Positions 9,806 through 50,491 of a DNA stretch of 64,000 nucleotides are shown here, in pieces. Source of the stretch: an uncultured delta proteobacterium (lineage in GTDB: Bacteria; Myxococcota_A; Polyangia; Fen-1088); the NCBI GenBank assembly GCA_963824555.1, contig CAWGPW010000007.1, forward strand, positions 26,186 through 90,185. Direction: 5' to 3'. Made by a program: the position numbers and the translations under genes. The notes under the pieces were generated by a model. It was given only the letters and a program-made list of their open reading frames with translations. It had not been told where the DNA came from and made no database searches. The number at the start of each line of letters is the position of its first letter. Within the stretch, counting starts at the first letter, position 1.

Positions 9806-9930
9806 GCGAACCTCCAGGCTGAAAGCATCGTGCTCTGCATGGAGCGCTCCATGCACTCCTCGTCGAACGCCGACTCCGACGCTGGCGCACCAAGCCTGAC
9901 CATGGCTACTCCGCAGAACATCTTCATCGG

Positions 9931-9959
9931 TTGTGCAGTGGCGCGAGCGTGGCGATTCC
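9931..9959 (-). promoter_or_regulatory. Promoter-like element (GGAATC-N17-GCACAA) shared with the ECF sigma gene at 26069
   Basis: The coding-strand sequence cGGAATCGCCACGCTCGCGCCACTGCACAACC matches cGGAAACGGCACGCTGTGGCCACTGCACGAGC (25881-25912) at 25 of 32 positions in my hand alignment. It lies ~125 nt upstream of ATG 9805. Confidence 0.3.
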
Positions 9960-10207
9960 GTCTTGGCCCCCGATCCTGATGTGACGGCTCCGACGAGAGC
10001 TGCGACGACACCAGTCTGCCGGCCGGTGACGGGACCAACTCTGGCGAATTCGTGGTCCGTGCAGACGGGCTGACGGTAACCGGGCTTTAGCCCTCTGTTC
10101 GCCCAATGGCTGTTGCGGGATATGGTGGGAGTGCGTTGACGGTCAATGGGTCCAGGGGCCACCAGGAAGGCTTGGACGCCCGCGTAAGCCGTGGTACCAC
10201 CTCCGCC

Positions 10208-17197: not shown

Positions 17198-19597
17198 CTA
17201 CTTGACGACGATGGCATCCACCGCGACCGGTCCTGGTCCGCGATTGATGATGGCGATGGCGTGCTGTCCTGAAATCAGGCCACTCACCTCGGACACCATC
17301 TGCTGGGCCTGGCGCGCACCTGTTGAGGACAGATCCGCCGTCGCCTTGGATTGTCCATCGATCTGAATCTCAATGCTTCCATCCCCGGATTCTTTCGGAG
17401 CGTAGACCGACACGTCAGTCCCGGTGAATGTGGAAGTCCAGGTATCCCCAGTGTTGGTGCTGGTGGTGAGATCGTTGTTGTAGTCACCCGTGCCCAGGTT
17501 GGACTTGCGAAGCCATCCGGGAGCCGCCGCCCCCGGATCGTCGTCGTTGATCCAGCCCTTGTCGTGGGTGATGCGCAGAACGCGCATCTTCGACGCCACT
17601 TGCTGATCGGAGATCCCCGACAGCGCCGATACCGACCCGCTGGGCGTCACCGTTAGACCTTGACTGCCTTGAGTAAACGTCATCGCAACCGTGGAGCCGA
17701 GCAGCTCGACTTTGGACACCTTGCCCAAGGTTGCCCCCCCGGTCTTCAGCGCCGGGAGGGTGACCGCGCCTCCGTTCCAACCGAGGAGCGTGGCGTACAC
17801 ATTGCCGTTGTTGCGCGTATAGAGGACCGTACTGTCGCCGGAGACTTCAAAGGGACGGGATGCATACACGGCCTCGCCGTTGACCTTCAACCAAGCACCA
17901 ATGTCTTGGGCGATCTGGGTACACTGGGGGTCGAGATTCCCCCGGCCGTGCTGCGTGAGGTTGAGCAGCAAGCTGCCATTTCGGGAGACGTTCTGCATCA
18001 GCGTCGTGACCAGACTCCCGGCGCTTGTGTATCCCGCCCCGGTCATGTAGTGCCAGTTCCCGCCCTGAATGTCGAGCTCTGTCTGGAAGGGATAGGCATT
18101 GATGTCGGCGAGGGTAACCGCCTCCGTGCTCGCGACCAGGGCGCGCTGAACGTAGGGGATCAGGGCTTCATTGTCTTGGAAGCTATCGTATTGTCCGCCC
18201 ACACCCTTCATGTTCATCACCACGTCCATCTTCCCCTGATTCCAGGTCAAGGATTTGTTGTAGTAGTTTGCCAAGATCGTCGTTGCAATAGAACCCAGCC
18301 CCATATGGACGCCCAGATCCGTTTGGGAATCGCCGGCGTGGTCGTCGAAGTAGACGACGTCAGGATGATACTTGTTGATGGCGTCATCGACTCGATACAT
18401 GAACTGGGTGCCATAGGCCGAATTGTTGCACGAGTTGTTCGAACAGTCGGTGGTGTGCTTGGGCCCATAAAGATCAGCAGGATTCATGCCCTCCCACCAT
18501 TTGCCTTTGCCATCCGCTGTCGTTAGCAGCGCATCGTAGGGTCCCTTCGCGTCGCTGGTGTAACGAATCGGCATCCACTGACCCCAAGTTCGAGCTGGCG
18601 TGTTGTGGAAGCCGATGCCGAACCGCAGACCCTTTTGGCGCGCGATCGGCTCCCAGGTGCCCACCATGTCCTTCTGCACTCCGACCCGGACGGAGTTCCA
18701 GGGCTGGTAGGTCGAATCGAAGTTGTCGAAGTTGTCATGGTGCGCGCCCATAGCCATGAAGAACTTGGCGCCCATTTGCACGTACAGATCCATCAAGGCG
18801 CTGGGATCCCACAGGTCGACCACCCAGTTCTTGCAGATGTCCTTGTAACCGTAGACGGACGGATCACCGAAGTGGCTGACGTTATAGTTGAAGTCGGCCG
18901 AGCCCTCCTGATACATGTGATAGGCGTACCAGTCGCCTTGCTCGGGCATGGATTGAGGATCCCAGTGAGCCCACGCGCCGAATTTGGCGTCACGCCACCA
19001 CTCCGGCGTTGCGTAGGCCAGGCCGAGCGCCTTCCAGTCGGCGGTATACGGGCCCGTGGCCACGGGGAACTTCGGCAGGTTCCAAATGTCCGTGCCCGCG
19101 ACCGTTCCCCCCGTGCCCTGCTGGCCCCCGGTCCCAGGCGAGCCCCCAGCGCCGCCGGTCGCGCTTGTACTCGCACCGCCGGTGCCTCCGCCTGCTGCAC
19201 CACCGGTGGCGTTGCGGCCACCAGACGCAAACATGCCACCGCTTGCAACCCCGCCCCCTTGGCCACCGCCTTGTCCTTGGGGACCACCACCCGAACCGGA
19301 TAGCGTGCCACCGGACGACGAAGTCGTGGAACCGCCCGCATTGCTCGTGCCGCCACTCGCGGCCACACCCCCGCCTCCTTGGCTTCCGCCTTGGCCCGGG
19401 ATGCCTCCTCCCGAACTGGAACCACCCGCGCTGGTGGTATTGCCTCCTACCGCTAGGCCTCCGCTCCCGAGCCTTCCACCGCTGTTGACGCTACCTCCCG
19501 TGGCAGCGCCAGGAGAGGTATTCCCGCTGCAGGCGACCGAGAACCCCATGACGCTAAAAACAAGAACCATTGCCGTCTGCCTTGTCATCATCTTCAT
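17198..19597 (-). CDS. GH29 alpha-L-fucosidase lipoprotein with a C-terminal CBM-like domain
   Basis: MKMMTRQTAMVLVFSVMGFSVAC and a Gly-rich tether. Then …AKFGAWAHWDPQS…GDWYAYHMY…GAKFFMAMGAHHDNFDNFDS…, the GH29 pattern. The C-terminal ~140 aa form a beta-sandwich-like domain. Confidence 0.9.
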   Translation of the reverse strand: MKMMTRQTAMVLVFSVMGFSVACSGNTSPGAATGGSVNSGGRLGSGGLAVGGNTTSAGGSSSGGGIPGQGGSQGGGGVAASGGTSNAGGSTTSSSGGTLSGSGGGPQGQGGGQGGGVASGGMFASGGRNATGGAAGGGTGGASTSATGGAGGSPGTGGQQGTGGTVAGTDIWNLPKFPVATGPYTADWKALGLAYATPEWWRDAKFGAWAHWDPQSMPEQGDWYAYHMYQEGSADFNYNVSHFGDPSVYGYKDICKNWVVDLWDPSALMDLYVQMGAKFFMAMGAHHDNFDNFDSTYQPWNSVRVGVQKDMVGTWEPIARQKGLRFGIGFHNTPARTWGQWMPIRYTSDAKGPYDALLTTADGKGKWWEGMNPADLYGPKHTTDCSNNSCNNSAYGTQFMYRVDDAINKYHPDVVYFDDHAGDSQTDLGVHMGLGSIATTILANYYNKSLTWNQGKMDVVMNMKGVGGQYDSFQDNEALIPYVQRALVASTEAVTLADINAYPFQTELDIQGGNWHYMTGAGYTSAGSLVTTLMQNVSRNGSLLLNLTQHGRGNLDPQCTQIAQDIGAWLKVNGEAVYASRPFEVSGDSTVLYTRNNGNVYATLLGWNGGAVTLPALKTGGATLGKVSKVELLGSTVAMTFTQGSQGLTVTPSGSVSALSGISDQQVASKMRVLRITHDKGWINDDDPGAAAPGWLRKSNLGTGDYNNDLTTSTNTGDTWTSTFTGTDVSVYAPKESGDGSIEIQIDGQSKATADLSSTGARQAQQMVSEVSGLISGQHAIAIINRGPGPVAVDAIVVK

Positions 19598-31462: not shown

Positions 31463-32092
31463 ATGGACCTACTTCCTCGTGAACAAGAAAAGCTTCTCCT
31501 CTTCGCGGCCGGCCTTCTCGCCGAGCGCAGAAAGGCCCGCGGGCTGAAGCTGAACTATCCCGAAGCCGTGGCGTACATCTCCGCCGCCATTCTCGAGGGC
31601 GCGCGCGACGGTCGAAGCGTGGCCGACCTGATGACCTACGGAACCCAGCTCCTCGGCGCCGACGACGTGATGGAAGGCGTGGCCGAGCTGATCCCCGAGG
31701 TGCAGGTCGAAGCGACGTTTCCCGACGGCACCAAGCTGGTGACGGTTCACCAGCCCATTCCTCTTTCCCATTCCGTTCCCGGCGAAGTGACGACCGCGCC
31801 GGGCGAGATCGTCCTCAACGAGGGTCGGACCACCCTCACCCTAGAGGTGGCCAACACCGGAGACCGACCCATCCAAGTGGGATCGCACTATCACTTCTTC
31901 GAGACCAATCCCGCCCTGCGTTTCGATCGCCCGAAGACGCGAGGCTTTCGTTTGAACATTCCCGCCGGCACTGCCGTGCGCTTCGAACCCGGGCAGACCC
32001 GCACCGTCGAGCTGTGCGCCTTCGCCGGCGACCGCGTGGTGCAGGGGTTCCGCGGCGAGGTGATGGGCCCACTCGACAAAGGTGCGTCATGA
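31463..32092 (+). CDS. ureAB: Urease gamma-beta fused subunit (UreA-UreB fusion)
   Basis: [39 protein letters not shown]… (gamma) continues without a stop into …[44 protein letters not shown]… (beta). 209 aa in total. Confidence 0.9.
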
Positions 32093-33801
32093 GACGCATC
32101 GATCGGCGCGCCTACGCCGACATGTACGGCCCCACCGTTGGGGATCGCGTGCGCCTCGGCGACACCGACTTGGTCGTCGAGGTCGAGCACGACCACGCCA
32201 TCTATGGGGAAGAGGTGAAGTTCGGCGGCGGCAAGGTCATCCGCGACGGCATGGGACAAAGCCAGCGCTTCGGCGCAGGTGTCGCCGATACCGTCATCAC
32301 CAACGCCGTGATCGTCGACCACTGGGGCATCGTCAAGGCCGACATCGGCATCAAAGACGGCCGCATTTCCGGCATCGGCAAGGCCGGCAATCCCGACGTG
32401 CAACCGGGCGTGACCATCGTCATCGGCCCCGGTACGGAAGTCATCGCGGGGGAAGGGTGCATCGCCACGGCCGGCGGCATCGATTCGCACATCCATTTCA
32501 TTTGTCCGCAGCAGGTTGACGAGGCGCTCATGTCCGGCATCACGACCATGATCGGCGGCGGCACCGGTCCCGCTGCAGGCACCAACGCGACCACCTGCAC
32601 GCCGGGGCCCTGGAACACGGCGCGCATGCTCGAGGCGGCCGACGCGCTGCCGGTGAATCTGGGCTTCCTCGCCAAGGGGAATGCCAGCCTGCCAGGTGGG
32701 CTGGTCGAGCAGATCGAGGCCGGGTGCATGGGTCTCAAACTGCACGAGGACTGGGGGACCACGCCGGCCGCCATCGACAATTGCCTGTCCGTGGCCGAGG
32801 CGCACGACGTGCAGGTGGCCATCCACACCGACACCTTGAACGAATCGGGCTTCGTCGAAGACACCATCGCCGCCTTTCGCGGCCGCGCCATCCACACCTA
32901 CCACACCGAAGGTGCCGGCGGCGGGCACGCGCCGGACATCATCAAGGTGTGCGGCGCCGCCAACGTGTTGCCGTCCTCCACCAACCCGACCCGGCCTTAC
33001 ACGATCAACACCGTCGACGAACACCTCGACATGTTGATGGTCTGCCACCATCTGGATCCGAGTATTGCCGAGGACGTGGCCTTTGCCGAGTCGCGCATTC
33101 GCCGCGAGACCATCGCCGCCGAGGACATCTTGCACGACCTGGGCGCCTTCAGCATGATGTCCAGCGATTCGCAGGCCATGGGCCGCGTGGGGGAGACCAT
33201 CACGCGCACCTGGCAGACCGCGCACAAGATGAAAGAGCAGCGTGGCCCCTTGCCAGCCGACGCCGCCGCTGGGGGCAAGAACGACAACTTCCGCGTGAAG
33301 CGCTTCATCGCGAAGTACACCATCAATCCCGCCATCACCCACGGTATTGCGCACGAAGTGGGTTCGCTCGAAGTGGGCAAGCTGGCCGACATCGTGCTGT
33401 GGAAGCCTGCCTTCTTCGGCGCCAAGCCTGCCCTGATCGTCAAAGGCGGATTCATCGCAGCCGCGCCCATGGGCGATGCCAACGCCTCCATTCCCACGCC
33501 TCAGCCGGTGCGCTTTCGCCCCATGTTCGGCGCCTTGGACGGCCCGCGCCAGAAGACCAGCGTGACCTTCGTCTCGGCGGCGGCGCTTGCGGCCGGCGTA
33601 GGCGAGCGACTGGGGCTACGCAAGCGCGTGGTCGCAGTCAAGGGAACCCGAACCATCCGCAAACGGGATCTTGTTCACAACGACTATCAACCGGTCATCG
33701 AAGTGGATGCACAAACCTATGCCGTGCGCGCCGATGGCCAGCCGCTCGTTTGCTCGCCCGCGCACAAGTTGCCGCTCGCGCAACGTTACTTTTTGTTCTG
33801 A
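32089..33801 (+). CDS. ureC: Urease alpha subunit
   Basis: [28 protein letters not shown]…[14 protein letters not shown]…[10 protein letters not shown]…. The ATGA start overlaps the ureAB stop. Confidence 0.95.
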
Positions 33802-38019: not shown

Positions 38020-39054
38020 TCATCGCGCGGCTGCCGTCGCCTCTTCTAAGACGACCTCCGAGGCGGCCTTGTCCTCGCGCAAGCCGAGAAAAGTAGAATG
38101 GCGAAGCAAACCGTCCTGGGTGAATCCCGAGAAGGAAACCTCGGCCACGAGCTCGGGCTTGACCCAGTGGACAGCGCGCGCCTCGGCGCCGGTCGGCGCA
38201 TGCACGAGATCGGGTTGCTGGTCGCGCAGGAAAGAAAGCTTGGTGTGGAGGGTGCACAGAGAATTTTCGCTGAACCCGGTGCCGACACGTCCTCGGTACA
38301 CGAGCTTCCCTCCCGTGTGCGTGGCCAACAACAGCGCCCCGAGAAGCGTGCGCGAGCCCTTCGGATCGGTGAACCCTACCACGACAAACTCCTGGCGCTG
38401 GCTGCACTTCGTCTTCAACCAACTGCGGCTGCGCCCCGAGCGATAGGGCGCGTCCAGTCGTTTGGAGACGATTCCCTCCAGACCCATGCGGGCCGCCTGG
38501 GCGAGAAAGGCCGGTCCTTGCCCAATCACGTGGTCGCTCAGGCGAATCGTGTTGGCGAAGGGAGGTGGAACGCGGGTGAGCAACTCCGCCAGCAACGCCT
38601 TGCGCTGGGCAAGGCCCATGGCTTGCAGATCGACGCCGTTCAAGTACAGCAAGTCGAATGCGAAGTAGACGAGGAGAGCGTCGCGCGCGCCACCCAGCGC
38701 GTCCTGCAGGCGCTGGAAATCGCTCACCCCACGCTCGTCGAGGACGACCATCTCGCCGTCGAGCAAGACTGTCTCGGCCGGGATGCTTTCCGCTGCTTTC
38801 GCCAAAGTGGGCATGCGATTCGTCCAGTCGTTCCCTCGGCGCGAAAGCAGCGTCGCCTTGCCTCGCTTGACGCTCGCCAGGATGCGGTAGCCGTCGAATT
38901 TGATCTCATGCAGCCAGTCTTGTCCGGACGGGGGTGCGTCCGCGAGGGAGGGCAACTCGGGCTCGATCCGCTCGGGCAATGGCCCAATGGTCGCGCCGGA
39001 AGCCTTCGCAGCGTCGGTGCCGTATTTGCGACTTTTGGAGGGCGCGCCCGTCAT
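38020..39054 (-). CDS. Standalone ATP-dependent DNA ligase (LigD-type ligase domain with OB fold)
   Basis: Motif I WLHEIKFDGYR, motif III LLDGEMVV, motif IV LEGIVSK and motif V SWLKTKC are all intact. Confidence 0.9.
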   Translation of the reverse strand: MTGAPSKSRKYGTDAAKASGATIGPLPERIEPELPSLADAPPSGQDWLHEIKFDGYRILASVKRGKATLLSRRGNDWTNRMPTLAKAAESIPAETVLLDGEMVVLDERGVSDFQRLQDALGGARDALLVYFAFDLLYLNGVDLQAMGLAQRKALLAELLTRVPPPFANTIRLSDHVIGQGPAFLAQAARMGLEGIVSKRLDAPYRSGRSRSWLKTKCSQRQEFVVVGFTDPKGSRTLLGALLLATHTGGKLVYRGRVGTGFSENSLCTLHTKLSFLRDQQPDLVHAPTGAEARAVHWVKPELVAEVSFSGFTQDGLLRHSTFLGLREDKAASEVVLEEATAAAR

Positions 39055-39064
39055 GGTCGACGTC

Positions 39065-41233
39065 TCACCCGCGCCCGCGCTCGAGAGCTGCTCGCGCGGC
39101 CTTGATCTTGGCCGCGGTCAGTTTCTGGCGGACACTCCCGTAGCTCGCCCAGGGATCCTGTTCCGGGTACCAGCGGTCGACATCGCCGACGTGAAATGCG
39201 TCGTCGCGGGTTCCGAATCCCAGGGCATCCCATGCCACCGGCACCGAGACCGTCGCGGCTGGTTGTGCGCGCGACGAAAAGACGCTGACCGAGGTCGCGC
39301 CCCGGCGATTGCGAAGGTAGTCGACGAAGATCTTGTCGGTGCGGGGGGCCTTGGCCAAGCCGGCGGAGAAGCGCGCTGGCTCGTAGCGCGCCAGCGCCTG
39401 GGCCATGACCCGTGAAAACTCGAGCGTGTCCTCCCAAGTCGCGGCAGGGGTCAGGGGAACGACCACGTGCAAGCCCTTGCCGCCGGTGGTCTTGACGAAG
39501 CTCGCGAGATCGAGCGTCTCGAGCACGTCGCGCACGCGCCTCGCGCCGTCGACGATGTCCGACCACGGAACCTCCGGCCCTGGGTCGAGATCGAAGACGA
39601 TCCGGTCGGGCCGCTCGAGGTCGCGGGTGCGGGCGTTCCAGGGGTGGATCTCGAGGACGTTCATCTGCGCCAGGGTGACGAGGCCGCGCACATCGTCGAC
39701 GATCATGGCGGTGCCCGCGCCCGTGCCGCCGATGATCTCGAATTGCCTCAGCTCGGGCGGCGCCCAATCGCCGGCGTGGCGGACGAAAAAGCGCTGGCCG
39801 CCCATGCCGTTCGGAGCGCGTACCAGGGTCAACGGCCGGTCTACCAGGTGGGGCAGCATGCGCTCGCCGATGCGTTCGTAAAAGCGCGCGAGGTCGAGCT
39901 TGGTGATGCCGACGTCGGGATAGAGCATCCGCCCGGGGTGGGTCAACTTCACGCCCGCGATGCGCGGTTGGTTCAACGCCGGCTTGTCGGCCAGCTTCGG
40001 CGATGCCTCCGCCACGGACGCATCCCTGCCCTTGCTCGCGCCGTTCGTTCGGCAGCGGACGATTCGCCAGGCCGATGCGGGCGGCGGATAGCGGCTGTCG
40101 ACCTTCTTCGACACGATCCCCGCCGCGCCAAGTGCGCAGGCCTGGACGAAGATCTCGCGCCCTCGCCCCACGACATGGTCCGCGAAACGCAGCGCCGGCT
40201 CGGCCTTTACAACCAGGGAAGCGAGCGCGGATTTCCGTTCGCCGAGCGGAACCCGGGTCAGGTCGTGGCCGTCCAAATACGGCAGATCGATCGCGTACAG
40301 CGTGTCGGCCGGGCCATCCGCCCCCGAATGTCCGTCCGGTCGCAACGCCGTGGCGATGCCGTCGATCAAAGCCTGGCCTACGGGCAGGCTCCGGACCGCG
40401 CCGACCACGCCCACGAGCGCGGACGTGCGATCGTGCCCGTCGGCGCCGAGCAGTTGAACGCGTCCCCCATCCACGCGGGCCACGACCCGTTCGCCCACGA
40501 TCTCGATCTCGTGCAGCCACTCGTCCCCGTCGGGGACCGTGCGCGCGAGCCTGGGTCGCGCCGGGCGGATCCCTTCCGGCATCGGCGCCGCGCGAGCACC
40601 TAGCAGTGCGCCGGCGTCGCTCCGCCCGCGGTTGGAATGCCAGACGCGGTCGGAGGCCGCGGCGATGGCGTCCAGATCGCGCCCCGTAACCACGCTTTCG
40701 GGGCGAGCCTCGGTCACGCTCCATTCGGCCTCGGGACGCGCGTGCTCGTCGCGATCCTTGACCAGCAGCCAGCTCCGGTCGTCGCTACCGTGGCCGGCCC
40801 GCCCGCGTGCCTTCAACCGGACCAGTGCCCAGCGTCCGCGCAGCTTCTCGCCAAGCAGCTCGAACTTGAGGTGGCCGCTGGCGAGGCCCGCCCCCGGATC
40901 GAACAGCGGCTTCCACGTTCCCTTGTCCCACAGCAACACCGTGCCACCGCCGTATTGACCGGCGGGGATGATGCCCTCGAATCCACCGTAGTCGATGGGA
41001 TGATCCTCCACCGCGACCGCCAACCGCTTGGCCGAGGGATCGAAGCTCGGCCCCTTGGGAATGGACCAACTCTTGAGAACGCCGTCGAGCTCGAGGCGAA
41101 AATCGTAGTGCAATTGGCGCGCGGCGTGCTTCTGCACCACGAAGCTCCGGCCCGTCGGCGTCGCGCCCACGCGGGCCGGGGGCTCGGCCGTGACCGTGAA
41201 GTCGCGCTTGCGCTTGTACTCGTCGAGTGCCAT
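39065..41233 (-). CDS. ligD: Multidomain LigD: phosphoesterase, degenerate ligase-like module, polymerase/primase
   Basis: The N-terminal PE domain reads FVVQKHAARQLHYDFRLELDGVLKSWSIPKGPS…. The middle module has WLHEIEIVGER where KxDG is expected. The C-terminal Pol domain reads …FFVRHAG…IVFDLDPGP…FVKTTGGKGLHVVVPL…. Confidence 0.9.
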   Translation of the reverse strand: MALDEYKRKRDFTVTAEPPARVGATPTGRSFVVQKHAARQLHYDFRLELDGVLKSWSIPKGPSFDPSAKRLAVAVEDHPIDYGGFEGIIPAGQYGGGTVLLWDKGTWKPLFDPGAGLASGHLKFELLGEKLRGRWALVRLKARGRAGHGSDDRSWLLVKDRDEHARPEAEWSVTEARPESVVTGRDLDAIAAASDRVWHSNRGRSDAGALLGARAAPMPEGIRPARPRLARTVPDGDEWLHEIEIVGERVVARVDGGRVQLLGADGHDRTSALVGVVGAVRSLPVGQALIDGIATALRPDGHSGADGPADTLYAIDLPYLDGHDLTRVPLGERKSALASLVVKAEPALRFADHVVGRGREIFVQACALGAAGIVSKKVDSRYPPPASAWRIVRCRTNGASKGRDASVAEASPKLADKPALNQPRIAGVKLTHPGRMLYPDVGITKLDLARFYERIGERMLPHLVDRPLTLVRAPNGMGGQRFFVRHAGDWAPPELRQFEIIGGTGAGTAMIVDDVRGLVTLAQMNVLEIHPWNARTRDLERPDRIVFDLDPGPEVPWSDIVDGARRVRDVLETLDLASFVKTTGGKGLHVVVPLTPAATWEDTLEFSRVMAQALARYEPARFSAGLAKAPRTDKIFVDYLRNRRGATSVSVFSSRAQPAATVSVPVAWDALGFGTRDDAFHVGDVDRWYPEQDPWASYGSVRQKLTAAKIKAARAALERGRG

Positions 41234-41297
41234 CGCTTCAGCGACCGTTCCTTCTCGCGACGTGAATCCCCACGGCTTTCGTGTCAGAAGCAGGAGC

Positions 41298-42005
41298 GTG
41301 AAGACCTGGATCGGAACCAGCGGCTTCAGCTACCCCGCGTGGCGCGGAAGCTTCTACCCGGCGAAGATGCCGCCGGCGAAGATGCTGGCGTATTACGCCG
41401 AGCGCCTGACGACCGTCGAGATCAACAACACCTTCTATCGCATGCCCAAGGCCGAGATGCTGGCGGCCTGGGCCGCGACGACGCCGGCCGCGTTCCGCTT
41501 CGCGCCCAAGGCGCCGCAACTGATTACGCACCGACAGAAACTGGCCGGCGCGGCCGACGCCCTCGCCTATTTCCTGAAGGCGCTCTCGTCGTTCGGGGAG
41601 AAACTGGGGCCCATCCTGTTTCAGCTGCCGCCGTTCTTGCGCAAGGATGTCCCGCGCCTTGCGGACTTTCTCGCACTCTTGCCCCGCGAAACCCGCGCCG
41701 CCTTCGAATTTCGCCACCCCTCTTGGTTCGACGATGCCGTCTACGAGACCCTGCGCGCGCACGGCGCGGCCCTGTGCGTCGCCGACGCCGAGGAGCTGGC
41801 CACGCCGTTCGTGCCCACGGCATCGTGGGGTTACTTGCGCCTGCGCCGCACCGACTACGACGACGCCGCGCTTGCGGCCTGGGCCAAGAAGCTCGCAGCG
41901 CTGGAGCCCACCTGGGCCGACGCATTCGTCTACTTCAAGCACGAGGACGCGGGCCTCGGCCCGAAGCTCGCCGCGCAGTTCGTGGAAAAACTGTCCCAAG
42001 GTTGA
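41298..42005 (+). CDS. DUF72 (YecE-like) family protein
   Basis: AGGAG RBS and a GTG start. VKTWIGTSGFSYPAWRGSFYP…YYAERLTTVEINNTFYRMP…ILFQLPPF…FEFRH.SW… is the DUF72 signature. Confidence 0.85.
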   Translation: MKTWIGTSGFSYPAWRGSFYPAKMPPAKMLAYYAERLTTVEINNTFYRMPKAEMLAAWAATTPAAFRFAPKAPQLITHRQKLAGAADALAYFLKALSSFGEKLGPILFQLPPFLRKDVPRLADFLALLPRETRAAFEFRHPSWFDDAVYETLRAHGAALCVADAEELATPFVPTASWGYLRLRRTDYDDAALAAWAKKLAALEPTWADAFVYFKHEDAGLGPKLAAQFVEKLSQG

Positions 42006-42132
42006 TTGGATGTCGACCGAGCGTTGACGTCACGAGTTGCGAGAGCCGCCCGACGCTGCACGGCGCCATGGTACCGGACTCAAACAGTCCTTTTTTTGGC
42101 ATCGACCTCATTTCGGGATCAGAATTTGCTGC

Positions 42133-43092
42133 ATGGCGCGCGCAATTTCGACCGGCACGATTTCCTTCGGACTGGTATCGATTCCAGTCAAGCTCTACTC
42201 CGCGACCCAATCCTCCGCGGGGATTTCCTTCAACTTGCTGCACGGCAAGTGCGGCTCGCGGCTCAAGCAGCAGTACGTCTGTCCCGTGGACAACGAGGTC
42301 GTCTCGCGCGACGAGATGGTCAAGGGCTATGAGTTCGCGAAGGATCAGTACGTCACCTTCACGCCCGACGAGCTCAAGGCGCTGGAAGAAAAGACGACCC
42401 AATCCATCGAGATTGCCCAATTCGTCCCGCTCGAGAGCGTCGATCCCCTGTACTACGAAAAGGCCTATTACCTCGGCCCCGAGAAAGGCGGCGAAAAGGC
42501 GTACCGGCTCCTTGGCACGGTGATGCGCGAGGCGAATCGCGCCGCCGTGGCCCGCTATGCGGCGCGGGGCAAACAGTACATCGTCATGCTTCGTGTCTCC
42601 AACGACGCCCAGGGCGGGATTGGCCTCATCATGCAGACCTTGCTGTACGCCGACGAGGTTCGGCCCTTTTCCGAGGTTCCCATCCCGGATGCCGACGTCA
42701 AGGAATCCGAGGTCAAGCTGGCCAAGCAGCTCGTCGACCAAATCGGATCGGAGACGTTCAACCCGGCGGACTACGAAGACGATGTCCGCAAGCGAATCCA
42801 GGCCGACATCGAGCGCAAGGTCGCGGGCAAGGAAATCGCCACGGCGCCGACCGCGTCCGAAACCGGCCGAGTGATCGATTTGATGGAGGCCTTGAAGGCG
42901 AGCCTGGGCGAGGGGCGTCCGGCTGCCAAGGCCGCGACCGAGAGCGCCGACGCTGCGCCCATTGCGAGCCTGGCGAAGGCGGCGGAGGCGGAAGGCGTTC
43001 TCGAGCGCAAGCCCGCCCGGCGCGCCAACGCAACGGAGGATGCCGGGCCAGGTGCGAAGGTCGAGGCACGGAAGCGCGCGAGTAGACGGTGA
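42133..43092 (+). CDS. ku: Ku protein (NHEJ DNA-end-binding)
   Basis: MARAISTGTISFGLVSIPVKLYSAT…VVSRDEMVKGYEF.KDQYV….E…YY.EKAYYLGP is the bacterial Ku pattern. A basic C-terminal tail follows. Confidence 0.9.
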   Translation: MARAISTGTISFGLVSIPVKLYSATQSSAGISFNLLHGKCGSRLKQQYVCPVDNEVVSRDEMVKGYEFAKDQYVTFTPDELKALEEKTTQSIEIAQFVPLESVDPLYYEKAYYLGPEKGGEKAYRLLGTVMREANRAAVARYAARGKQYIVMLRVSNDAQGGIGLIMQTLLYADEVRPFSEVPIPDADVKESEVKLAKQLVDQIGSETFNPADYEDDVRKRIQADIERKVAGKEIATAPTASETGRVIDLMEALKASLGEGRPAAKAATESADAAPIASLAKAAEAEGVLERKPARRANATEDAGPGAKVEARKRASRR

Positions 43093-45513: not shown

Positions 45514-46539
45514 ATGCGGAGATTTTGCGCCCTCGCGGCTGGGCTTCTCGCCTCGCTTGCGTTCGCGACGGGCGTGCATGCCAAGACCGTCGAGTACCTC
45601 TCGCAGCACCCGGTGCCGCACAAGTACGGGGGCGGCTTCTGCAACATCGAGGTTCCCCACGTGCACAACTATCCCCCTGACGATCCACGCATGTACCGCG
45701 AGACCAACGGCCAGCTCTACTTCGTCGGGGATCCTGCCCCCTTCGGCTACGATGGTCCACGCTATACGTACTACGGCGCCCATCCCGTGGTCGATGCCGA
45801 GGTTCGATTCGGTCGTCCGGTCTATTGCTACATCAAGGGTCCCCACTACCACTGGTACCAGCCGCCAGCCCAGGCCCAGTTCCAACTGTCGGGAGGGGCC
45901 TACTGGTACGTGGGCAGCTTTCCGCCCGCCTACTACGACGATCGGCCGCGCTACGCTGCAATCAACGATGCCTACGCCCCCTTGCCCTACACACGCCCCG
46001 TGGTCGACGTTCAGGTCGCGCCACCCTCGGTGCGCGCGGAGATCTCCATCGGTGGACCGGGCTGGCGGGCCAGCGCCGTGGTGGGCGGACCGCCCGCGCC
46101 CGGCTATGTGGCTCCGCCGCCGCCCCCGCCCGGACCGGCCCTGCAGATCGGCGTCGGCATCAACCTGGGTGGGCCGCCGGTGGTCGGCGGTCCCATGATC
46201 GAACGCCGCGAGATCATCGAAGACCGGCGCGACCACGACCACGGACGGCACGAGGGATGGCGAGAGCCGCCGCGTTTTCGCGACCACGGCCACCGTCCGG
46301 CGCCGGCCCGCTATGCGCCGGTCCGCGCCCCCGTCACCGCGCCCCTGTTGCATCGCGCAGAGCCGCGGCGGCCGGGTCCAAGCCCTCGCTTTGCTCCGGC
46401 AACCGCGCCGATGCGCGGCCCCGCCCCGAACCAACCAAGACGCGGCCCTGCCCCGACCCAACCCGGTCACGCCATGGGCCCGCCCACGCGCGGTCCAGCG
46501 CCGACGGCGCTGGCGAAGCACGACGACCGCCATCGTTGA
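45514..46539 (+). CDS. Secreted protein with two copies of a CxIxxPHxH module and a Pro/His/Arg-rich tail
   Basis: MRRFCALAAGLLASLAFATGVHA (signal peptide). The two copies are FCNIEVPHVHNYPP…YFVG…YDGPRY and YCYIKGPHYHWYQPP…YWYVG…YDDRPRY. The tail reads RRDHDHGRHEGWREPPRFRDHGH…. Confidence 0.75.
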   Translation: MRRFCALAAGLLASLAFATGVHAKTVEYLSQHPVPHKYGGGFCNIEVPHVHNYPPDDPRMYRETNGQLYFVGDPAPFGYDGPRYTYYGAHPVVDAEVRFGRPVYCYIKGPHYHWYQPPAQAQFQLSGGAYWYVGSFPPAYYDDRPRYAAINDAYAPLPYTRPVVDVQVAPPSVRAEISIGGPGWRASAVVGGPPAPGYVAPPPPPPGPALQIGVGINLGGPPVVGGPMIERREIIEDRRDHDHGRHEGWREPPRFRDHGHRPAPARYAPVRAPVTAPLLHRAEPRRPGPSPRFAPATAPMRGPAPNQPRRGPAPTQPGHAMGPPTRGPAPTALAKHDDRHR

Positions 46540-46552
46540 GGGAAGGTCATCC

Positions 46553-47002
46553 ATGCGACGAGCACCATTCTTTCTCCCCATCCTTCTCCTCCTTGCCGCG
46601 ATTCCCGCGTGCAGCAGGAACAAGGCTTCTGCGTCGTCCGCTCCGGCGACGCCGGCTGCCCACGTGCAAGGCACTCCACACACCGACGAGGTCCTGAATG
46701 CCTGGCGCAACGCCGGCTTGGCCCCCGAGGGTTTCGCGCGCGTCGACCCGGCGCCGGACAGCGCCGCCTACTGCGAACACGGCCAGGTTCACGGGGTCGA
46801 CACCCTGGTCTGCGAGTACGCCAGCGAGGAAGCGCTGACCAGCGGAACCCAGCAGGTGAAGGAAGGTTGGGCGCGCGTGGACGCGCACACCGGCGCGATC
46901 CTGCGCGCAAAACGCACCACGATGGTCGTGGTGGACCGAGAACGCCGCGAACCCAGCGGCAAGACCATCAACCAGATGGCCAAGGTCTTCGAGAAACTCT
47001 AA
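46553..47002 (+). CDS. Small lipoprotein, unknown function
   Basis: MRRAPFFLPILLLLAAIPAC (lipobox). 149 aa, 13 nt downstream of the previous gene. Confidence 0.75.
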   Translation: MRRAPFFLPILLLLAAIPACSRNKASASSAPATPAAHVQGTPHTDEVLNAWRNAGLAPEGFARVDPAPDSAAYCEHGQVHGVDTLVCEYASEEALTSGTQQVKEGWARVDAHTGAILRAKRTTMVVVDRERREPSGKTINQMAKVFEKL

Positions 47003-47015
47003 CGGCGAACAAGAA

Positions 47016-47708
47016 ATGGAACATTTCATCCTCGCGCTCGCCGCCCTGCTGGCGGCAAAGCACGAAAACGCCGCCGCCGAGCCTCGCCTCGAGGTGTGGG
47101 CCGGCCATCAGGTCTTGAACGGCAAGCGCAAGATTCCGCTTTACGGCGAAAAGGAGACCCACACCGAGAACTACATCATCGCGGAAGTGACCCGAACGGC
47201 GTCGCGCATCGACATCCGGCAGAAGCTGTGCCGCATCGACATCCGCCCCATCAAGGGCGTGCTGGCGAGCATGAAACCGGAAACCGTCGCCCACCTACCA
47301 AGGACGCGCATCACGTTCGATGAGAGCGCGGACGGATCGCTGGCCGCCACACCGTGGTCCACCGGCTGGGGCGCCGAGGACATCGACCTCGATGGCAAGC
47401 CCGGCGCCACAGTCAAAATTTCCGGGACAAGCTGCTCGGGCGACGTCTACGTTTCCAACCAGTCCGTGACGTCCCTGTTTTCCGGCCATGCCACCGACGA
47501 CGGCGCCGCGGGCGAAATCTCCGTGAAGCTCAAGCAGAAGATCCTCGGCGCCAGCGGCCTTTGCTTGAAGCTCATCGCTGGCGACAGCGATGAAACGCAA
47601 ACCGGCTGGTTCGCCTACCGCCGCGTCGAGCCCGGCACGACCTGCCGTTCCCTCGTGGGCAAACCCTGGCCGGCGAAGGCGGAACCACCACCGCCGGCTC
47701 CCCACTGA
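47016..47708 (+). CDS. Hypothetical secreted protein
   Basis: MEHFILALAALLAAKHENAAA is signal-like. 230-aa ORF, 13 nt after the preceding gene. No family recognised. Confidence 0.65.
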   Translation: MEHFILALAALLAAKHENAAAEPRLEVWAGHQVLNGKRKIPLYGEKETHTENYIIAEVTRTASRIDIRQKLCRIDIRPIKGVLASMKPETVAHLPRTRITFDESADGSLAATPWSTGWGAEDIDLDGKPGATVKISGTSCSGDVYVSNQSVTSLFSGHATDDGAAGEISVKLKQKILGASGLCLKLIAGDSDETQTGWFAYRRVEPGTTCRSLVGKPWPAKAEPPPPAPH

Positions 47709-47844
47709 CCAAGCCGGATCGGATGCCGAGGCGAGGTAGCCGACTTTTCCGACAATCATGCTTTTCGGAACGCGTTTGCCTGCATGCTCTTCCCGGCCAG
47801 GGGGCGATGGTGTAGACAGCTACCGTCTCAAAGGAGGTTCGCGA

Positions 47845-48537
47845 ATGATCTACTCGACAGAAGTCGAACACATGACGTGCGTGGCGAAAGGGCCGAACCA
47901 CGGTCCCGCGCCCATCCCGGAAGAAGGCCGCTGGGTCCAAGCCAAGGAGATCAAGGACATTTCCGGCCTCACCCACGGCGTGGGTTGGTGCGCTCCCCAG
48001 CAGGGTGCCTGCAAGCTGACCCTCAACGTGAAGGATGGCGTGATCCAAGAAGCCCTGGTCGAGACCATCGGCTGCTCCGGCATGACCCACAGCGCGGCCA
48101 TGGCCGCGGAGATCCTCTCGGGCAAGACCATTCTCGAAGCCCTCAACACCGATCTCGTGTGCGACGCCATCAACACGGCCATGCGCGAGCTGTTCCTGCA
48201 GATCGTCTACGGCCGCACGCAGACGGCCTTCTCGGAGGGCGGCCTGCCCATCGGCGCCGGCCTGGAGGATCTGGGCAAGGGCCTGCGTAGCACCGTCGGC
48301 ACCATGTACGGCACCGTGGCCAAGGGCGTGCGCTACCTGGAAATGGCCGAGGGCTACGTGACCCGCCTCGGGCTCGACGAAGGCGGCGAGGTCATCGGCT
48401 ACGAATTCGTCCACCTGGGCAAGATGATGGAATCCATCAGCAAGGGCGTGGAGGCCGGGGAAGCCTTGAAGAAGGCCACCTCGAAGTACGGACGCTTCGA
48501 CGAAGCGGCCAAAACCATCAACCCCCGCCACCAGTAG
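47845..48537 (+). CDS. NifU/IscU-like Fe-S scaffold homolog with a C-terminal extension
   Basis: AAAGGAGG RBS, then MIYSTEVEH…GWCAPQQGACKLTLNVKDGVIQEALVETIGCSGMTHSAAMAAEILSGKTILEALN…LVCDAINTAM. The three Cys sit at IscU-like positions. Confidence 0.8.
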   Translation: MIYSTEVEHMTCVAKGPNHGPAPIPEEGRWVQAKEIKDISGLTHGVGWCAPQQGACKLTLNVKDGVIQEALVETIGCSGMTHSAAMAAEILSGKTILEALNTDLVCDAINTAMRELFLQIVYGRTQTAFSEGGLPIGAGLEDLGKGLRSTVGTMYGTVAKGVRYLEMAEGYVTRLGLDEGGEVIGYEFVHLGKMMESISKGVEAGEALKKATSKYGRFDEAAKTINPRHQ

Positions 48538-48552
48538 CAGGAGACATCGATC

Positions 48553-49554
48553 ATGGCTCTGTTTGAATCCTACGAACGCAGAATCGGCCAGATCACCCCG
48601 GTGTTGGCCAAGTACGGCATCGCGTCCCTCGAAGACGCGAAAAAGCTCGTCGATGCCAAGGGCGTCGACGTGTACAAGATCGTCAAGGAGATCCAGCCCA
48701 TCGCCTTCGAGAACGCCTGTTGGGCGTACATTGTCGGCGCGGCCATCGCTCTCAAGAAAGGCCAGAAGAAGGCCGTGGACATCGCCTGCTCGCTCGGCGA
48801 AGGCATGCAGTGCTTCTGCATTCCCGGTTCGGTCGCCGACGATCGCAAGGTCGGCATCGGCCACGGCAACCTGGCCTCGATGCTGCTCAAGGAAGAGACC
48901 AAGTGCTTCGCCTTCCTGGCCGGGCACGAGTCCTTCGCCGCCGCCGAGGGCGCCATCGGCCTCGCCCGCAGCGCCAACAAGGCCCGCAAGCAGCCCCTGC
49001 GCGTGATCCTCAACGGTCTCGGCAAGGACGCGGCCCAGATCATCAGCCGCATCAACGGCTTCACCTACGTGCAAACGAAGTTCGACTACGGCACCAGCAA
49101 GCTCAACATCGTCCGCGAGATCGCCTATTCAAAAGGTGAGAAGGCGAAAGTCCGCTGCTACGGCGCCGACGACGTGCGCGAGGGGGTGGCCATCAACCAC
49201 CACGAGGGCGTGGACGTGTCCATCACCGGCAACTCCACCAACCCGACCCGCTTCCAGCACCCGGTGGCCGGTACCTACAAGAAGGAATGCCTCGAACAAG
49301 GCAAGAAGTACTTCTCGGTCGCGAGCGGCGGCGGCACCGGCCGCACCCTTCACCCCGACAACATGGCCGCCGGTCCCGCCAGCTACGGCATGACCGACAC
49401 CATGGGCCGCATGCACAGCGACGCCCAGTTCGCGGGCAGCTCGTCCGTGCCCGCGCACGTCGAGATGATGGGCTTCCTCGGCATGGGCAACAACCCCATG
49501 GTCGGCGCCAGCGTGGCCGTCGCGGTCGCGCTCGAGCAGGCGCAGGCCAAGTAG
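48553..49554 (+). CDS. GGGtGRT-motif protein (conserved protein of unknown function)
   Basis: 333 aa containing …KKYFSVASGGGTGRTLHPDNMAAGPASYGMTDTMGRMHSD…. To my knowledge this family is named after that motif and usually sits next to a NifU-like gene. Confidence 0.85.
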   Translation: MALFESYERRIGQITPVLAKYGIASLEDAKKLVDAKGVDVYKIVKEIQPIAFENACWAYIVGAAIALKKGQKKAVDIACSLGEGMQCFCIPGSVADDRKVGIGHGNLASMLLKEETKCFAFLAGHESFAAAEGAIGLARSANKARKQPLRVILNGLGKDAAQIISRINGFTYVQTKFDYGTSKLNIVREIAYSKGEKAKVRCYGADDVREGVAINHHEGVDVSITGNSTNPTRFQHPVAGTYKKECLEQGKKYFSVASGGGTGRTLHPDNMAAGPASYGMTDTMGRMHSDAQFAGSSSVPAHVEMMGFLGMGNNPMVGASVAVAVALEQAQAK

Positions 49555-49573
49555 TGACAGCTCCTCGCGGAGG

Positions 49574-49599
49574 CCGTAGTCAGCCATTGACTTCTACGG
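49574..49599. terminator. Candidate bidirectional stem-loop between convergent genes
   Basis: CCGTAGTCA-GCCAT-TGACT(TC)TACGG is an imperfect hairpin. It lies between the stop at 49554 (+) and the stop at 49643 (-). There is no clear T tract. Confidence 0.35.
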
Positions 49600-49642
49600 T
49601 CTCCGTCGAGGAAACCAGACCGCCCGAGAAGAGGCCCCTCGC

Positions 49643-50491
49643 CTATTTCTTCTTCTCTTTCTCTCGTTTGGGCGCGGTCGCTGGCGTAGGGTGCGCGGCT
49701 GGCGCTCCGTGCGCGGCAGGCATCGAACGCCCTGCGGGTGCCCCCGGACCATGCACGGGGCCGGGTGCCGCGTGCTCCATCCCCCTATGCTCTGCTTCGC
49801 GGTGTTCTGCCTCGCGATGTTCCGGTTCCCGATGCTCCATCTCCCGATGCTCCATCTCCCGATGCTCTGCTTCGCGGTGTTCGAGCCCCTCACGACGTTC
49901 AACCCCTTCGCGATGCTCCATTTCCCGTCGGTGCTCGATCCGGGGAGCCTCGCGCCAGCCACCTGGAGGCGCGCCAGGGGCACGTCGCCACGCTGTGCTA
50001 TGATTCGAATCAGCACGCCAGTACCGTGGCTCGTAGCGCGGACGCGCTACCCAGCCTGGAGCGATCATGCCCCCGCCGCCGTAGGCGTAGTCTCGATAGC
50101 CGTCAGACCGTTGCCAGTAGCCGCGGTAGTAGACCGGTTGACCACTCTCCCAAATGAAGCGTGGGCCGAAGTACGACCACCCAGGTCGCCCCTGAGCCCA
50201 GTATCCGTTGTTCCAGGCCCAATCGTAACCGGTCCAGTCCCAGTACCCGTTGACCCAGGTAAAGCCCCATCCGGGCGAAGGCGGTCGGTACTCCGGGATC
50301 GGATCCGGCGGCAGCGTCTCAGGGTACACGGTCGGACCGGCGACGTAGGCCTCGGGCGGCGGCGGCGCGTACTGCGCGTGCACTTCGCCGGCCTGAGCAA
50401 AGGTCAGGATGCCTCCCACGATCGACAGGCAGGCCGCGCGTCTCAGTCGTCGCGCGCTGACCGGCATGGATTTCGGCGTCGGTGTGCTCAT
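49643..50491 (-). CDS. Secreted WxxGxW-repeat protein with a C-terminal (E/M)HRE-x pentapeptide repeat tract
   Basis: MSTPTPKSMPVSARRLRRAACLSIVGGILTFAQAGEVHA (signal peptide). Then …FTWVNGYWDWTGYDWAWNNGYWA…, followed by IEHRREMEHREGVERREGLEHREAEHREMEHREMEHREPEHREAEHREAEHRGMEH. Confidence 0.8.
   Translation of the reverse strand: MSTPTPKSMPVSARRLRRAACLSIVGGILTFAQAGEVHAQYAPPPPEAYVAGPTVYPETLPPDPIPEYRPPSPGWGFTWVNGYWDWTGYDWAWNNGYWAQGRPGWSYFGPRFIWESGQPVYYRGYWQRSDGYRDYAYGGGGMIAPGWVARPRYEPRYWRADSNHSTAWRRAPGAPPGGWREAPRIEHRREMEHREGVERREGLEHREAEHREMEHREMEHREPEHREAEHREAEHRGMEHAAPGPVHGPGAPAGRSMPAAHGAPAAHPTPATAPKREKEKKK

What the first reader, a model, noticed from the sequence alone, without database searches (positions are those of the whole stretch)
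45514..50491. NifU-like + GGGtGRT gene pair embedded among secreted His/Cys-rich proteins
Five same-strand genes are packed with 13-136-nt spacers:
- a secreted CxIxxPHxH-repeat protein
- a small lipoprotein
- a secreted hypothetical protein
- a NifU/IscU-like protein that keeps three Cys at scaffold-like positions (GAC, GCSG, LVCD)
- a 333-aa protein with the eponymous SGGGTGRT motif

A convergent gene encodes a secreted WxxGxW protein with an (E/M)HRE-x repeat tract.

To my knowledge the NifU-like / GGGtGRT pair is a conserved module with no assigned function. Here it is linked to three or four periplasmic or surface proteins that look like metal binders. A urease (Ni enzyme) cluster lies ~10 kb away. 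A role in metal or cofactor handling is plausible but unproven.
Basis: partly seen in the sequence, partly recalled or inferred. Interest (0 to 1): 0.65.

Follow-up and report, generated by a model that had tools for sequence, protein, structure and literature searches.

The report
Iron-sulfur gene pair, candidate enolase substitute
The NifU-like/GGGtGRT gene pair is real but is not functionally tied to the neighbouring secreted proteins; it is a self-contained, extremely conserved module of anaerobes that genome comparisons tie to the enolase step of sugar breakdown, which makes the long-standing "missing enolase" puzzle of gut and rumen bacteria testable.

Summary
The proposed link between the pair and the secreted proteins fails.

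- **Pair versus trio.** g1-g2 occur in all 13 genomes of this Polyangia genus and g3 in 11. The pair occurs in 9, on other contigs in four of them. In two sister genomes an opposite-strand enolase separates g3 from the NifU-like gene. This genome has lost that enolase but keeps the NifU-proximal 5' region.
- **Conservation.** In 80 loci from about 8 phyla the NifU-like gene lies directly upstream of GGGtGRT in 73 of 74 cases. No other neighbour recurs in more than 9 loci, and none is metal-related. Both proteins are about 80% identical across phyla.
- **Context in the genus.** The pair lies beside enolase, PGK plus PEP carboxylase, or PFK in four of six contexts.
- **Enolase anticorrelation.** In 201 Oscillospiraceae-level genomes: pair+/eno- 50, pair+/eno+ 17, pair-/eno+ 126, pair-/eno- 8 (p=4e-24). 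A Bacteroidales-level set repeats this (6 of 7 enolase-less genomes carry the pair).
- **Fluoride.** Fluoride riboswitches and CrcB flank close relatives.

Best reading (about 0.45): an Fe-S-dependent alternative to enolase, here alongside a riboswitch-preceded canonical enolase. No biochemistry exists.

The parts
45514..46539 (+). g1: secreted, Pro-rich protein with two CxIxxPHxH motifs. Part of a lineage-specific trio, not of the pair's unit.
   Evidence: ORF and motifs. No Pfam or NCBIfam family. DNA homologues in all 13 genomes of the genus, unlinked to the pair in four.
46553..47002 (+). g2: small lipoprotein-like protein of the same trio.
   Evidence: lipobox-like AIPAC. No family. Present with g1 throughout the genus.
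47016..47708 (+). g3: secreted hypothetical protein, last gene of the trio.
   Evidence: Found in 11 of 13 genus genomes, with 40%-identical homologues in two other families of the class. In sister genomes it is followed by a convergent enolase.
47709..47844 (.). 136-nt spacer, read as the scar of an enolase deletion plus the pair's own 5' region. 47739-47844 is nearly identical to the NifU-proximal half of the enolase-NifU divergent intergenic region of G010. It holds the inverted repeat TTCCGA-N12-TCGGAA at 47747-47770 and the ribosome-binding site AAGGAGG.
   Evidence: Alignments. Sequence. No promoter, terminator or Rfam hit.
47845..48537 (+). g4: NifU/IscU-like subunit, 230 aa. An IscU-fold N-terminal half with invariant Cys49, Cys56, Cys77 and Cys106, plus a beta-rich C-terminal domain (about residues 150-225) with no known relative.
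   Evidence: Pfam 22.3 bits against a cut-off of 22. NCBIfam scaffold equivalogs far below their cut-offs. PDB sequence match. AF2 model and Foldseek match to IscU (probability 0.99). Invariant residues in 31 sequences.
48553..49554 (+). g5: GGGtGRT protein, 333 aa, the presumed catalytic partner. Alpha/beta fold without a structural relative. The motif region 259-298 is predicted disordered in the monomer.
   Evidence: PF14057 at 650 bits. 78-95% identity to 74 homologues from many phyla. AF2 pLDDT 80, pTM 0.81. No Foldseek or PDB profile hit.
49643..50491 (-). g6: convergent secreted WxxGxW/HRE-repeat protein. A lineage-specific neighbour, not part of the module.
   Evidence: No DNA homologue downstream of the pair in the closest genome G008. 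Other genes (a small membrane protein and a TauE/SafE-like protein, named by eye from the translations) follow the pair there.

Best explanation
The finding joins two unrelated units.

**Unit 1** is g1-g3. It is a Polyangia-lineage set of secreted proteins of unknown function.

**Unit 2** is the bicistron g4-g5. It is a horizontally acquired, self-contained two-subunit protein.
- g4 is an IscU-derived subunit. It would hold an Fe-S cluster on Cys56, Cys77 and Cys106, with Cys49 also invariant.
- g5 (GGGtGRT) would supply the substrate site.

**Proposed function.** Together they would act at the enolase step of glycolysis, 2-phosphoglycerate to phosphoenolpyruvate. The enzyme would be iron-dependent, probably oxygen-labile and fluoride-insensitive. 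It would be an analogue of the Mg-dependent enolase, not a homologue.

**In this genome.** The pair is a second system beside a canonical enolase on another contig, which is preceded by a fluoride riboswitch. It abuts g3 only because the enolase gene that follows g3 in sister genomes was deleted here.

**Shown**
- The unit structure, the strict pairing and the extreme conservation.
- The lack of a conserved link to the secreted genes.
- The glycolytic and fluoride-related gene contexts.
- The anticorrelation with enolase.

**Inferred**
- Fe-S binding.
- The reaction catalysed.
- Fluoride insensitivity.
For: 1. **Unit structure.**
   - NifU-like lies immediately upstream of GGGtGRT in 73 of 74 loci, and the next most common neighbour cluster is in at most 9 of 80.
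   - The trio and the pair are on different contigs in four genus genomes.
   - Enolase lies between them on the opposite strand in G008 and G010.
   - G000 retains 106 nt of that divergent 5' region.
2. **Horizontal acquisition.** PF14057 occurs in 9 of 13 genus genomes and in 0 of 28 genomes of other genera. The protein clusters with Geobacter, Solibacteraceae and Desulfobacterota sequences.
3. **Glycolytic context within the genus.**
   - Enolase A in G008 and G010.
   - Enolase B in G004 and in L018.
   - PEP carboxylase plus PGK in G003.
   - PFK in G012.
   - Across phyla the flanks include iPGM, TIM, Rpe and PMI.
4. **Phyletic complementarity.**
   - 12 of 50 pair-carrying genomes lack enolase, while 49 of 50 have PGK.
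   - In 201 genomes at least 90% complete around Oscillibacter: pair+/eno- 50, pair+/eno+ 17, pair-/eno+ 126, pair-/eno- 8. Fisher p=4e-24.
   - In 201 Bacteroidales-level genomes, 6 of 7 enolase-less genomes carry the pair against 29 of 194 enolase-positive ones. p=1e-4.
   - The published baseline is under 0.5% enolase-negative isolates (PMC6118326).
5. **Fluoride.**
   - RF01734 lies directly upstream of the pair in L051, with DUF190 and CrcB downstream.
   - In L022 a riboswitch is followed by PAP2 genes, CrcB, DUF190, a sulfatase and then the pair.
   - In L020 CrcB precedes the pair.
   - The genome's own enolase B follows a fluoride riboswitch.
6. **Iron and abundance.**
   - BT0173-74 fall 11- to 13-fold on iron depletion (PMC10434189).
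   - The pair was hit in the same B. thetaiotaomicron screen as pfkA (bioRxiv 10.64898/2026.04.10.717545).
7. **IscU fold and ligand cysteines** are retained.
Against: - No biochemistry exists for any member of the family.
- All 13 genomes of this genus keep an enolase, so here the pair replaces nothing.
- B. thetaiotaomicron insertion mutants grow normally on glucose, though that species has enolase.
- Extracts of enolase-less Butyrivibrio proteoclasticus B316 showed only a very low enolase activity (PMC2914790). The assay text does not mention anoxic handling. I did not verify that B316 carries the pair.
- The Hungate1000 comparison of enolase-positive and enolase-negative Butyrivibrio found no complementing function.
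- GGGtGRT resembles no known dehydratase in sequence or fold.
- The motif region is modelled with pLDDT below 50.
- The 2x2 tables count genomes, not evolutionary events, and are not corrected for phylogeny.
- Only 3 of 80 loci have CrcB or a riboswitch nearby, and the window itself has none.
Confidence: 0.45

Rival explanations
1. g1-g5 form one operon, perhaps with g6. In it, secreted His/Cys-containing metal binders feed a cytoplasmic NifU-like/GGGtGRT system for metal or cofactor handling, perhaps related to the nearby urease.
For: - The genes share a strand and have short spacers of 13, 13, 136 and 15 nt.
- No terminator is predicted after g3.
- g1 and g6 hold PHxH and HRE motifs.
- One genus genome (G007) has a ZIP metal permease directly upstream of the NifU-like gene.
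- A urease cluster lies about 10 kb away.
Against: - The trio and the pair are unlinked in G003, G012, G004 and G007, and the trio exists without the pair in G001, G002, G006 and G009.
- An opposite-strand enolase separates them in G008 and G010.
- g6 is not conserved next to the pair.
- 239 flanking genes in 80 loci show no recurrent metal-handling neighbour.
- g1 and g6 are only about 5% His.
- Unrelated genes lie between urease and the finding.
Confidence: 0.05
2. The pair makes enolase dispensable without doing enolase's reaction. It would catalyse a different step that bypasses enolase. Examples are a glycerate or phosphoglycerate dehydratase that gives pyruvate directly, or another route from triose phosphates to pyruvate or PEP.
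For: - The same phyletic complementarity and glycolytic neighbourhoods apply.
- It would fit the very low enolase activity measured in B316 extracts.
Against: - Fluoride-riboswitch control is most simply explained by direct replacement of the fluoride-poisoned enzyme.
- No conserved third gene accompanies the pair. A multi-step bypass would therefore have to use housekeeping enzymes.
Confidence: 0.2
3. The pair is not a metabolic enzyme. It would be a specialised Fe-S scaffold or carrier, or an iron/redox sensor. Its presence would correlate with enolase loss only through shared lifestyle (strict anaerobes of gut, rumen and sediment) or through maturation of some other enzyme.
For: - It has the IscU fold with all three scaffold cysteines.
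- Expression is iron-dependent.
- Pair-positive genomes are 12-15% even among enolase-positive ones, and many genomes hold both.
Against: - The NCBIfam IscU, NifU and SufU equivalogs score far below their cut-offs.
- No LPPVK motif is present, and Lys replaces the Asp of the scaffold motif.
- The top flanking-family tallies show no cysteine desulfurase.
- About 80% identity across phyla and high abundance in metaproteomes are more typical of a core enzyme.
- Lifestyle alone does not explain 50 of 58 against 17 of 143 within one family. It also does not explain the CrcB and riboswitch links.
Confidence: 0.2

Closest known systems
PF14057 'GGGtGRT protein' with its adjacent 'NifU' gene, for example Bacteroides thetaiotaomicron BT0173-BT0174
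   Same: - Full-length family match at 650 bits.
- The same gene order and tight coupling (15-nt spacer).
- About 80% identity to homologues from other phyla.
- The published members are iron-regulated, and they were hit in a glucose-signalling screen together with pfkA.
   Different: - This copy sits in an aerobe-rich phylum (Myxococcota), in one genus only, and was evidently acquired horizontally.
- Its flanks are lineage-specific secreted proteins.
- No member has a known biochemical function.
IscU / NifU N-terminal domain Fe-S scaffolds (PF01592; TIGR01999, TIGR03419, TIGR01994)
   Same: - IscU fold in residues about 38-125.
- Cysteines align with IscU Cys37, Cys63 and Cys106.
   Different: - It scores only at the Pfam threshold and far below the equivalog cut-offs.
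- It has a fourth invariant Cys49.
- Lys stands where scaffolds have Asp, and there is no LPPVK motif.
- It carries an extra 100-residue C-terminal domain.
- Its partner is GGGtGRT, not a cysteine desulfurase.
Canonical enolase (PF00113 / PF03952), Mg-dependent and fluoride-sensitive
   Same: - It is the proposed functional counterpart.
- It is adjacent to the pair in G004, G008, G010 and L018.
- It is anticorrelated with the pair in two large genome sets.
- Both appear in fluoride-riboswitch contexts.
   Different: - There is no sequence or fold similarity, so any relation is analogy.
- In this genome both are present.
[4Fe-4S] hydro-lyases such as two-subunit L-serine dehydratase or class I fumarase
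   Same: A working analogy from established enzymology. A cluster held by three cysteines uses its free iron to remove a hydroxyl beta to a carboxylate. 2-phosphoglycerate is a 3-hydroxy acid like serine. These enzymes are two-subunit, oxygen-labile and iron-dependent.
   Different: No homology was detected by Pfam, PDB profile or Foldseek. The resemblance is inference only.
Fluoride-riboswitch regulons (crcB motif RF01734: CrcB, DUF190, antiporters, enolase)
   Same: Close relatives of this pair lie behind the riboswitch or next to CrcB/DUF190 (L051, L022, L020). The genome's own enolase follows a riboswitch.
   Different: No riboswitch or CrcB is near the pair in this window.

Membership tests
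GGGtGRT protein family (PF14057) | Full-length match above Pfam's gathering score | tested here: met
   650.1 bits against a cut-off of 27, covering profile positions 1-327 of 327.
GGGtGRT protein family (PF14057) | The name-giving GGGTGRT motif | tested here: met
   GGGTGRT at residues 259-265. Most of its positions are invariant and the rest at least 90% conserved in 75 sequences.
NifU-like/GGGtGRT two-gene module | NifU-like gene immediately upstream on the same strand | tested here: met
   15-nt spacer here. The arrangement holds in 73 of 74 loci from many phyla.
IscU/NifU/SufU Fe-S assembly scaffolds | Score above the curated family cut-offs | tested here: not met
   Pfam 22.3 against 22, borderline. 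TIGR03419 27 against 187.9; TIGR01999 22.5 against 192.4; TIGR01994 20.4 against 92.5.
IscU/NifU/SufU Fe-S assembly scaffolds | Three cluster-ligand cysteines | tested here: met
   Cys56, Cys77 and Cys106 align with the scaffold cysteines and are invariant.
IscU/NifU/SufU Fe-S assembly scaffolds | Conserved Asp after the first Cys, the LPPVK chaperone motif, and a cysteine desulfurase partner gene | tested here: not met
   The sequence reads GACK. LPPVK is absent. The top 25 flanking-family tallies hold no desulfurase family.
Enolase (PF00113/PF03952) | Homology to the enolase fold | tested here: not met
   No Pfam match for g4 or g5. No structural match. Only functional analogy is proposed.
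Enolase (functional equivalence) | Catalysis of 2-phosphoglycerate to PEP | not testable with these tools
   Only indirect evidence is available: phyletic complementarity and gene context.
Five-gene operon g1-g5 | Conserved co-occurrence and gene order | tested here: not met
Five-gene operon g1-g5 | Co-transcription | tested here: inconclusive
   No terminator or promoter was predicted. The conserved divergent 5' region argues for a separate start.
Fluoride-riboswitch regulon | RF01734 aptamer upstream of the operon | tested here: not met
   None in the window. Present upstream of relatives in L051 and L022.

The most novel reading that the evidence does not exclude
The NifU-like/GGGtGRT pair is a previously unrecognised class of Fe-S-dependent, oxygen-labile, fluoride-insensitive 2-phosphoglycerate dehydratase. 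It would be the non-homologous 'missing enolase' of enolase-less gut, rumen and sediment anaerobes. In this Polyangia lineage it would serve as a back-up to a canonical enolase that is preceded by a fluoride riboswitch.
Probability: 0.4. Interest if true: 0.92.

Novelty: new member of a known kind. Interest (0 to 1): 0.7.

Why it matters
Enolase was long held to be universal. The reason some rumen and gut bacteria lack it has been open since at least 2010 (PMC2914790, PMC6118326).

If this abundant, ultra-conserved pair does that step, three things follow:
- A core reaction of glycolysis has a second, non-homologous, iron-sulfur solution.
- Metabolic reconstructions of many anaerobes need correcting.
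- Fluoride tolerance and iron limitation become linked to glycolytic flux.

This window adds a natural experiment in a single genus:
- The pair moves among enolase, PGK, PEP carboxylase and PFK loci.
- One enolase copy was deleted beside it.
- The remaining enolase follows a fluoride riboswitch.

The window also shows that the apparent tie to secreted 'metal binders' is an accident of that deletion.

Tried and rejected
- **Promoter and terminator scan** of 45.2-50.8 kb gave nothing usable.
- **Rfam.** No RNA element lies near the pair, either in the region or in the whole window.
- **Structure comparisons for GGGtGRT.** The PDB sequence search, the PDB profile search and Foldseek found no relative.
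I used a DNA search and ORF lists instead.
- **First neighbourhood pass.** Long antisense ORFs displaced the real genes. I fixed this by giving priority to g4 and g5 homologues.
- **Riboswitch patterns.** A strict pattern found nothing. A looser one plus Rfam found three loci.
- **Rejected: a urease or nickel link.** Unrelated genes lie between, and there is no conservation.
- **Rejected: the pair replaces a missing enolase in this genus.** All 13 genomes have one.
- **Left open: the split enolase frames in G003 and G008.** G003's PEP carboxylase is split as well, so these may be assembly indels rather than pseudogenes.


Full report
**1. Observation**

The ORF list and translations give five same-strand genes:
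- g1 45514-46539
- g2 46553-47002
- g3 47016-47708
- g4 47845-48537
- g5 48553-49554

The spacers are 13, 13, 136 and 15 nt. A convergent gene, g6, lies at 49643-50491.

- g1 has two CxIxxPHxH motifs.
- g2 has a lipobox-like AIPAC.
- g6 has two WxxGxW motifs and about nine HRE-type repeats.

g5 is a full-length PF14057 GGGtGRT protein at 650 bits. g4 touches the NifU_N threshold at 22.3 against 22 bits. It falls far below the NCBIfam scaffold equivalogs. It keeps the three IscU ligand cysteines. The urease cluster lies at 30.6-35.7 kb.

The only overstatement is 'His/Cys-rich'. g1 and g6 are about 5% His, hold 3 and 1 Cys, and are mostly Pro-rich.

**2. Is the pair tied to its neighbours?**

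The window lies in a Polyangia MAG, going by source names. PF14057 is found in 9 of 13 genomes of the genus and in none of 28 genomes of other genera of the family and class.

A DNA search of the genus and a protein search with g3 show the following:
- g1-g2 are in all 13 genomes and g3 is in 11, including genomes without the pair.
- The trio and the pair lie on different contigs in G003, G012, G004 and G007.
- In G008 and G010 they are neighbours, but a 431-aa enolase on the opposite strand lies between g3 and the NifU-like gene.
- The arrangement g1>g2>g3> <enolase recurs through the genus.

Alignments show that window 47739-47844 equals the NifU-proximal part of the G010 enolase-NifU divergent intergenic region. 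This genome has therefore lost about 1.5 kb holding that enolase. That loss brought g3 and g4 together.

g6 has no counterpart downstream of the pair in G008: there is no DNA match, and other genes lie there. The five-gene 'operon' is thus an accident of a deletion, and the pair very likely keeps its own start region.

**3. The module across bacteria**

A scan of one genome per species returned 597 confirmed relatives, and the 80 best were kept. They come from Bacillota, Bacteroidota, Spirochaetota, Thermodesulfobacteriota, Acidobacteriota, Actinomycetota, Verrucomicrobiota and Pseudomonadota, and are 78-95% identical to g5.

- The NifU-like gene is the immediate upstream same-strand neighbour in 73 of 74 loci. 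The next most frequent neighbour cluster is in at most 9 of 80.
- Both proteins are about 80% identical across phyla.
- In a library clustered at 50% identity, the full-length relatives among the best 150 hits are nearly all 70% or more identical to g5; only one or two intact ones fall near 50-55%.
- Pfam tallies of 239 flanking genes show no recurrent metal-related or secreted His-rich neighbour. They do show scattered sugar-phosphate enzymes: iPGM, TIM, Rpe and PMI.
- The tree puts the window's protein with a fen Myxococcales MAG. The next group holds Geobacter, Solibacteraceae and Desulfobacterota sequences, which fits horizontal transfer among sediment anaerobes.

**4. Structure**

- AlphaFold2 models g5 as an alpha/beta protein with pLDDT 80 and pTM 0.81. 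Residues 259-298, which include the GGGTGRT motif, are disordered.
- Foldseek, a PDB sequence search and a PDB profile search find no relative of g5.
- g4 has an IscU fold in its N-terminal half (probability 0.99). Its beta-rich C-terminal domain has no match.
- Invariant residues in g4 include Cys49, Cys56, Cys77 and Cys106, and His19, His44 and His82.
- Invariant residues in g5 include Cys89, Cys118 and six histidines.

**5. What does it do?**

Within the genus the pair occupies six different contexts, and four of them are beside glycolytic genes:
- enolase A (G008 and G010)
- enolase B (G004; also the fen MAG L018)
- PEP carboxylase upstream and PGK downstream (G003)
- PFK upstream (G012)

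I had read the pair as a central-carbon enzyme before consulting earlier scan notes. Those notes proposed the enolase step specifically, and I treated that as a lead to test.

*Test 1.* Of 50 pair-carrying genomes, 12 lack any enolase match, while 49 of 50 have PGK. The enolase-less carriers include Treponema, Anaerobiospirillum, Selenomonadaceae, Bacteroidia and several Clostridia.

*Test 2.* In 201 genomes at least 90% complete of the family around Oscillibacter sp. 1-3:

| | enolase present | enolase absent |
|---|---|---|
| pair present | 17 | 50 |
| pair absent | 126 | 8 |

The Fisher p-value is 4e-24. The eight double negatives are about what 90% completeness predicts.

*Test 3.* In 201 Bacteroidales-level genomes, 6 of 7 enolase-less genomes carry the pair, against 29 of 194 enolase-positive ones. 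p=1e-4.

The literature gives under 0.5% enolase-negative isolates and no known substitute (PMC6118326; PMC2914790).

*Fluoride context.* By established knowledge, enolase is the classic fluoride-poisoned enzyme.
- A fluoride riboswitch lies directly upstream of the pair in L051, with DUF190 and CrcB downstream.
- A riboswitch heads a same-strand gene run that ends in CrcB, DUF190, a sulfatase and the pair in L022.
- CrcB precedes the pair in L020.
- In the window's own genome, the one canonical enolase (contig 23) follows a fluoride riboswitch about 375 nt upstream.

*Published data.* BT0173-74 fall 11- to 13-fold on iron depletion. They were hit in the same glucose-signalling screen as pfkA.

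**6. Mechanism proposed, with its inferred steps marked**

The IscU-derived subunit would hold a cluster through three cysteines. GGGtGRT would bind the phosphorylated substrate. The complex would dehydrate 2-phosphoglycerate in the manner of [4Fe-4S] hydro-lyases such as L-serine dehydratase.

This is analogy from enzymology, not homology. Fe-S binding, the substrate and fluoride resistance are all untested.

**7. Evidence against**

- Every genome of this genus keeps an enolase.
- B316 extracts showed very low enolase activity, though anoxic handling is not mentioned.
- The genome counts are not corrected for phylogeny.
- No fold resemblance to any dehydratase was found.

I put about 0.45 on direct enolase-type catalysis.

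**8. Verdict**

The locus is a new member of a catalogued but functionally unknown family. Its interest lies in the function that comparative data now point to, and in the genus-level natural experiment around enolase.

Noticed in passing
L112:5274-5341 (= G000 contig 23, about 17273-17340); enolase at L112:5718-6997: The window's own genome has a fluoride riboswitch (RF01734, 40 bits, gathering score 34) about 375 nt upstream of its only canonical enolase, on the same strand and followed by a terminator-like stem.
   Followed up: partly
L018:1207-1276 (-) and 1403-1470 (+); enolase at 3319-4596; pair at about 7290-9002: In a fen Myxococcales MAG whose GGGtGRT is 95% identical, two divergent fluoride riboswitches flank an antiporter-like gene on one side and a same-strand gene run that ends in enolase B on the other. 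This lies about 3 kb upstream of the pair.
   Followed up: partly
window 47747-47770: A perfect inverted repeat, TTCCGA-N12-TCGGAA, lies in the pair's 5' region. It is conserved with one mismatch in G010. It could be an operator.
   Followed up: no
L013 (G008) about 6766-8177; G003 contig 21, 309467-310328; L012:10882-13492: Two pair-carrying sister genomes have their only enolase split over two reading frames. G003's PEP carboxylase is split as well, so assembly indels cannot be told apart from true pseudogenes.
   Followed up: partly
L014 (G007): 9633-10448 (-): In one sister genome a ZIP-family metal permease lies directly upstream of the NifU-like gene on the same strand. I named it by eye from the translation; no family search was run. 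It is the only metal-related neighbour seen in the genus.
   Followed up: no
window 32241-32522 (-): An Rfam match to the '5_ureB_sRNA' family (108.8 bits) lies antisense within the urease alpha-subunit ORF (32014-33801). It may reflect conservation of the coding sequence rather than an sRNA.
   Followed up: no
window 38020-43092: A non-homologous end-joining cluster lies between urease and the finding. It comprises an ATP-dependent ligase (38020-39054 -), LigD with phosphoesterase and primase-polymerase domains (39065-41233 -), and a Ku-like ORF (42037-43092 +, named by eye).
   Followed up: no
genomes G088, G108, G123, G165, G255, G257, G280: Among Oscillospiraceae-level genomes that hold both the pair and enolase, several enolases score lower (347-395 bits against the usual 420-450). 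One has an in-frame stop and one is partial. This hints at decay or a divergent type.
   Followed up: no
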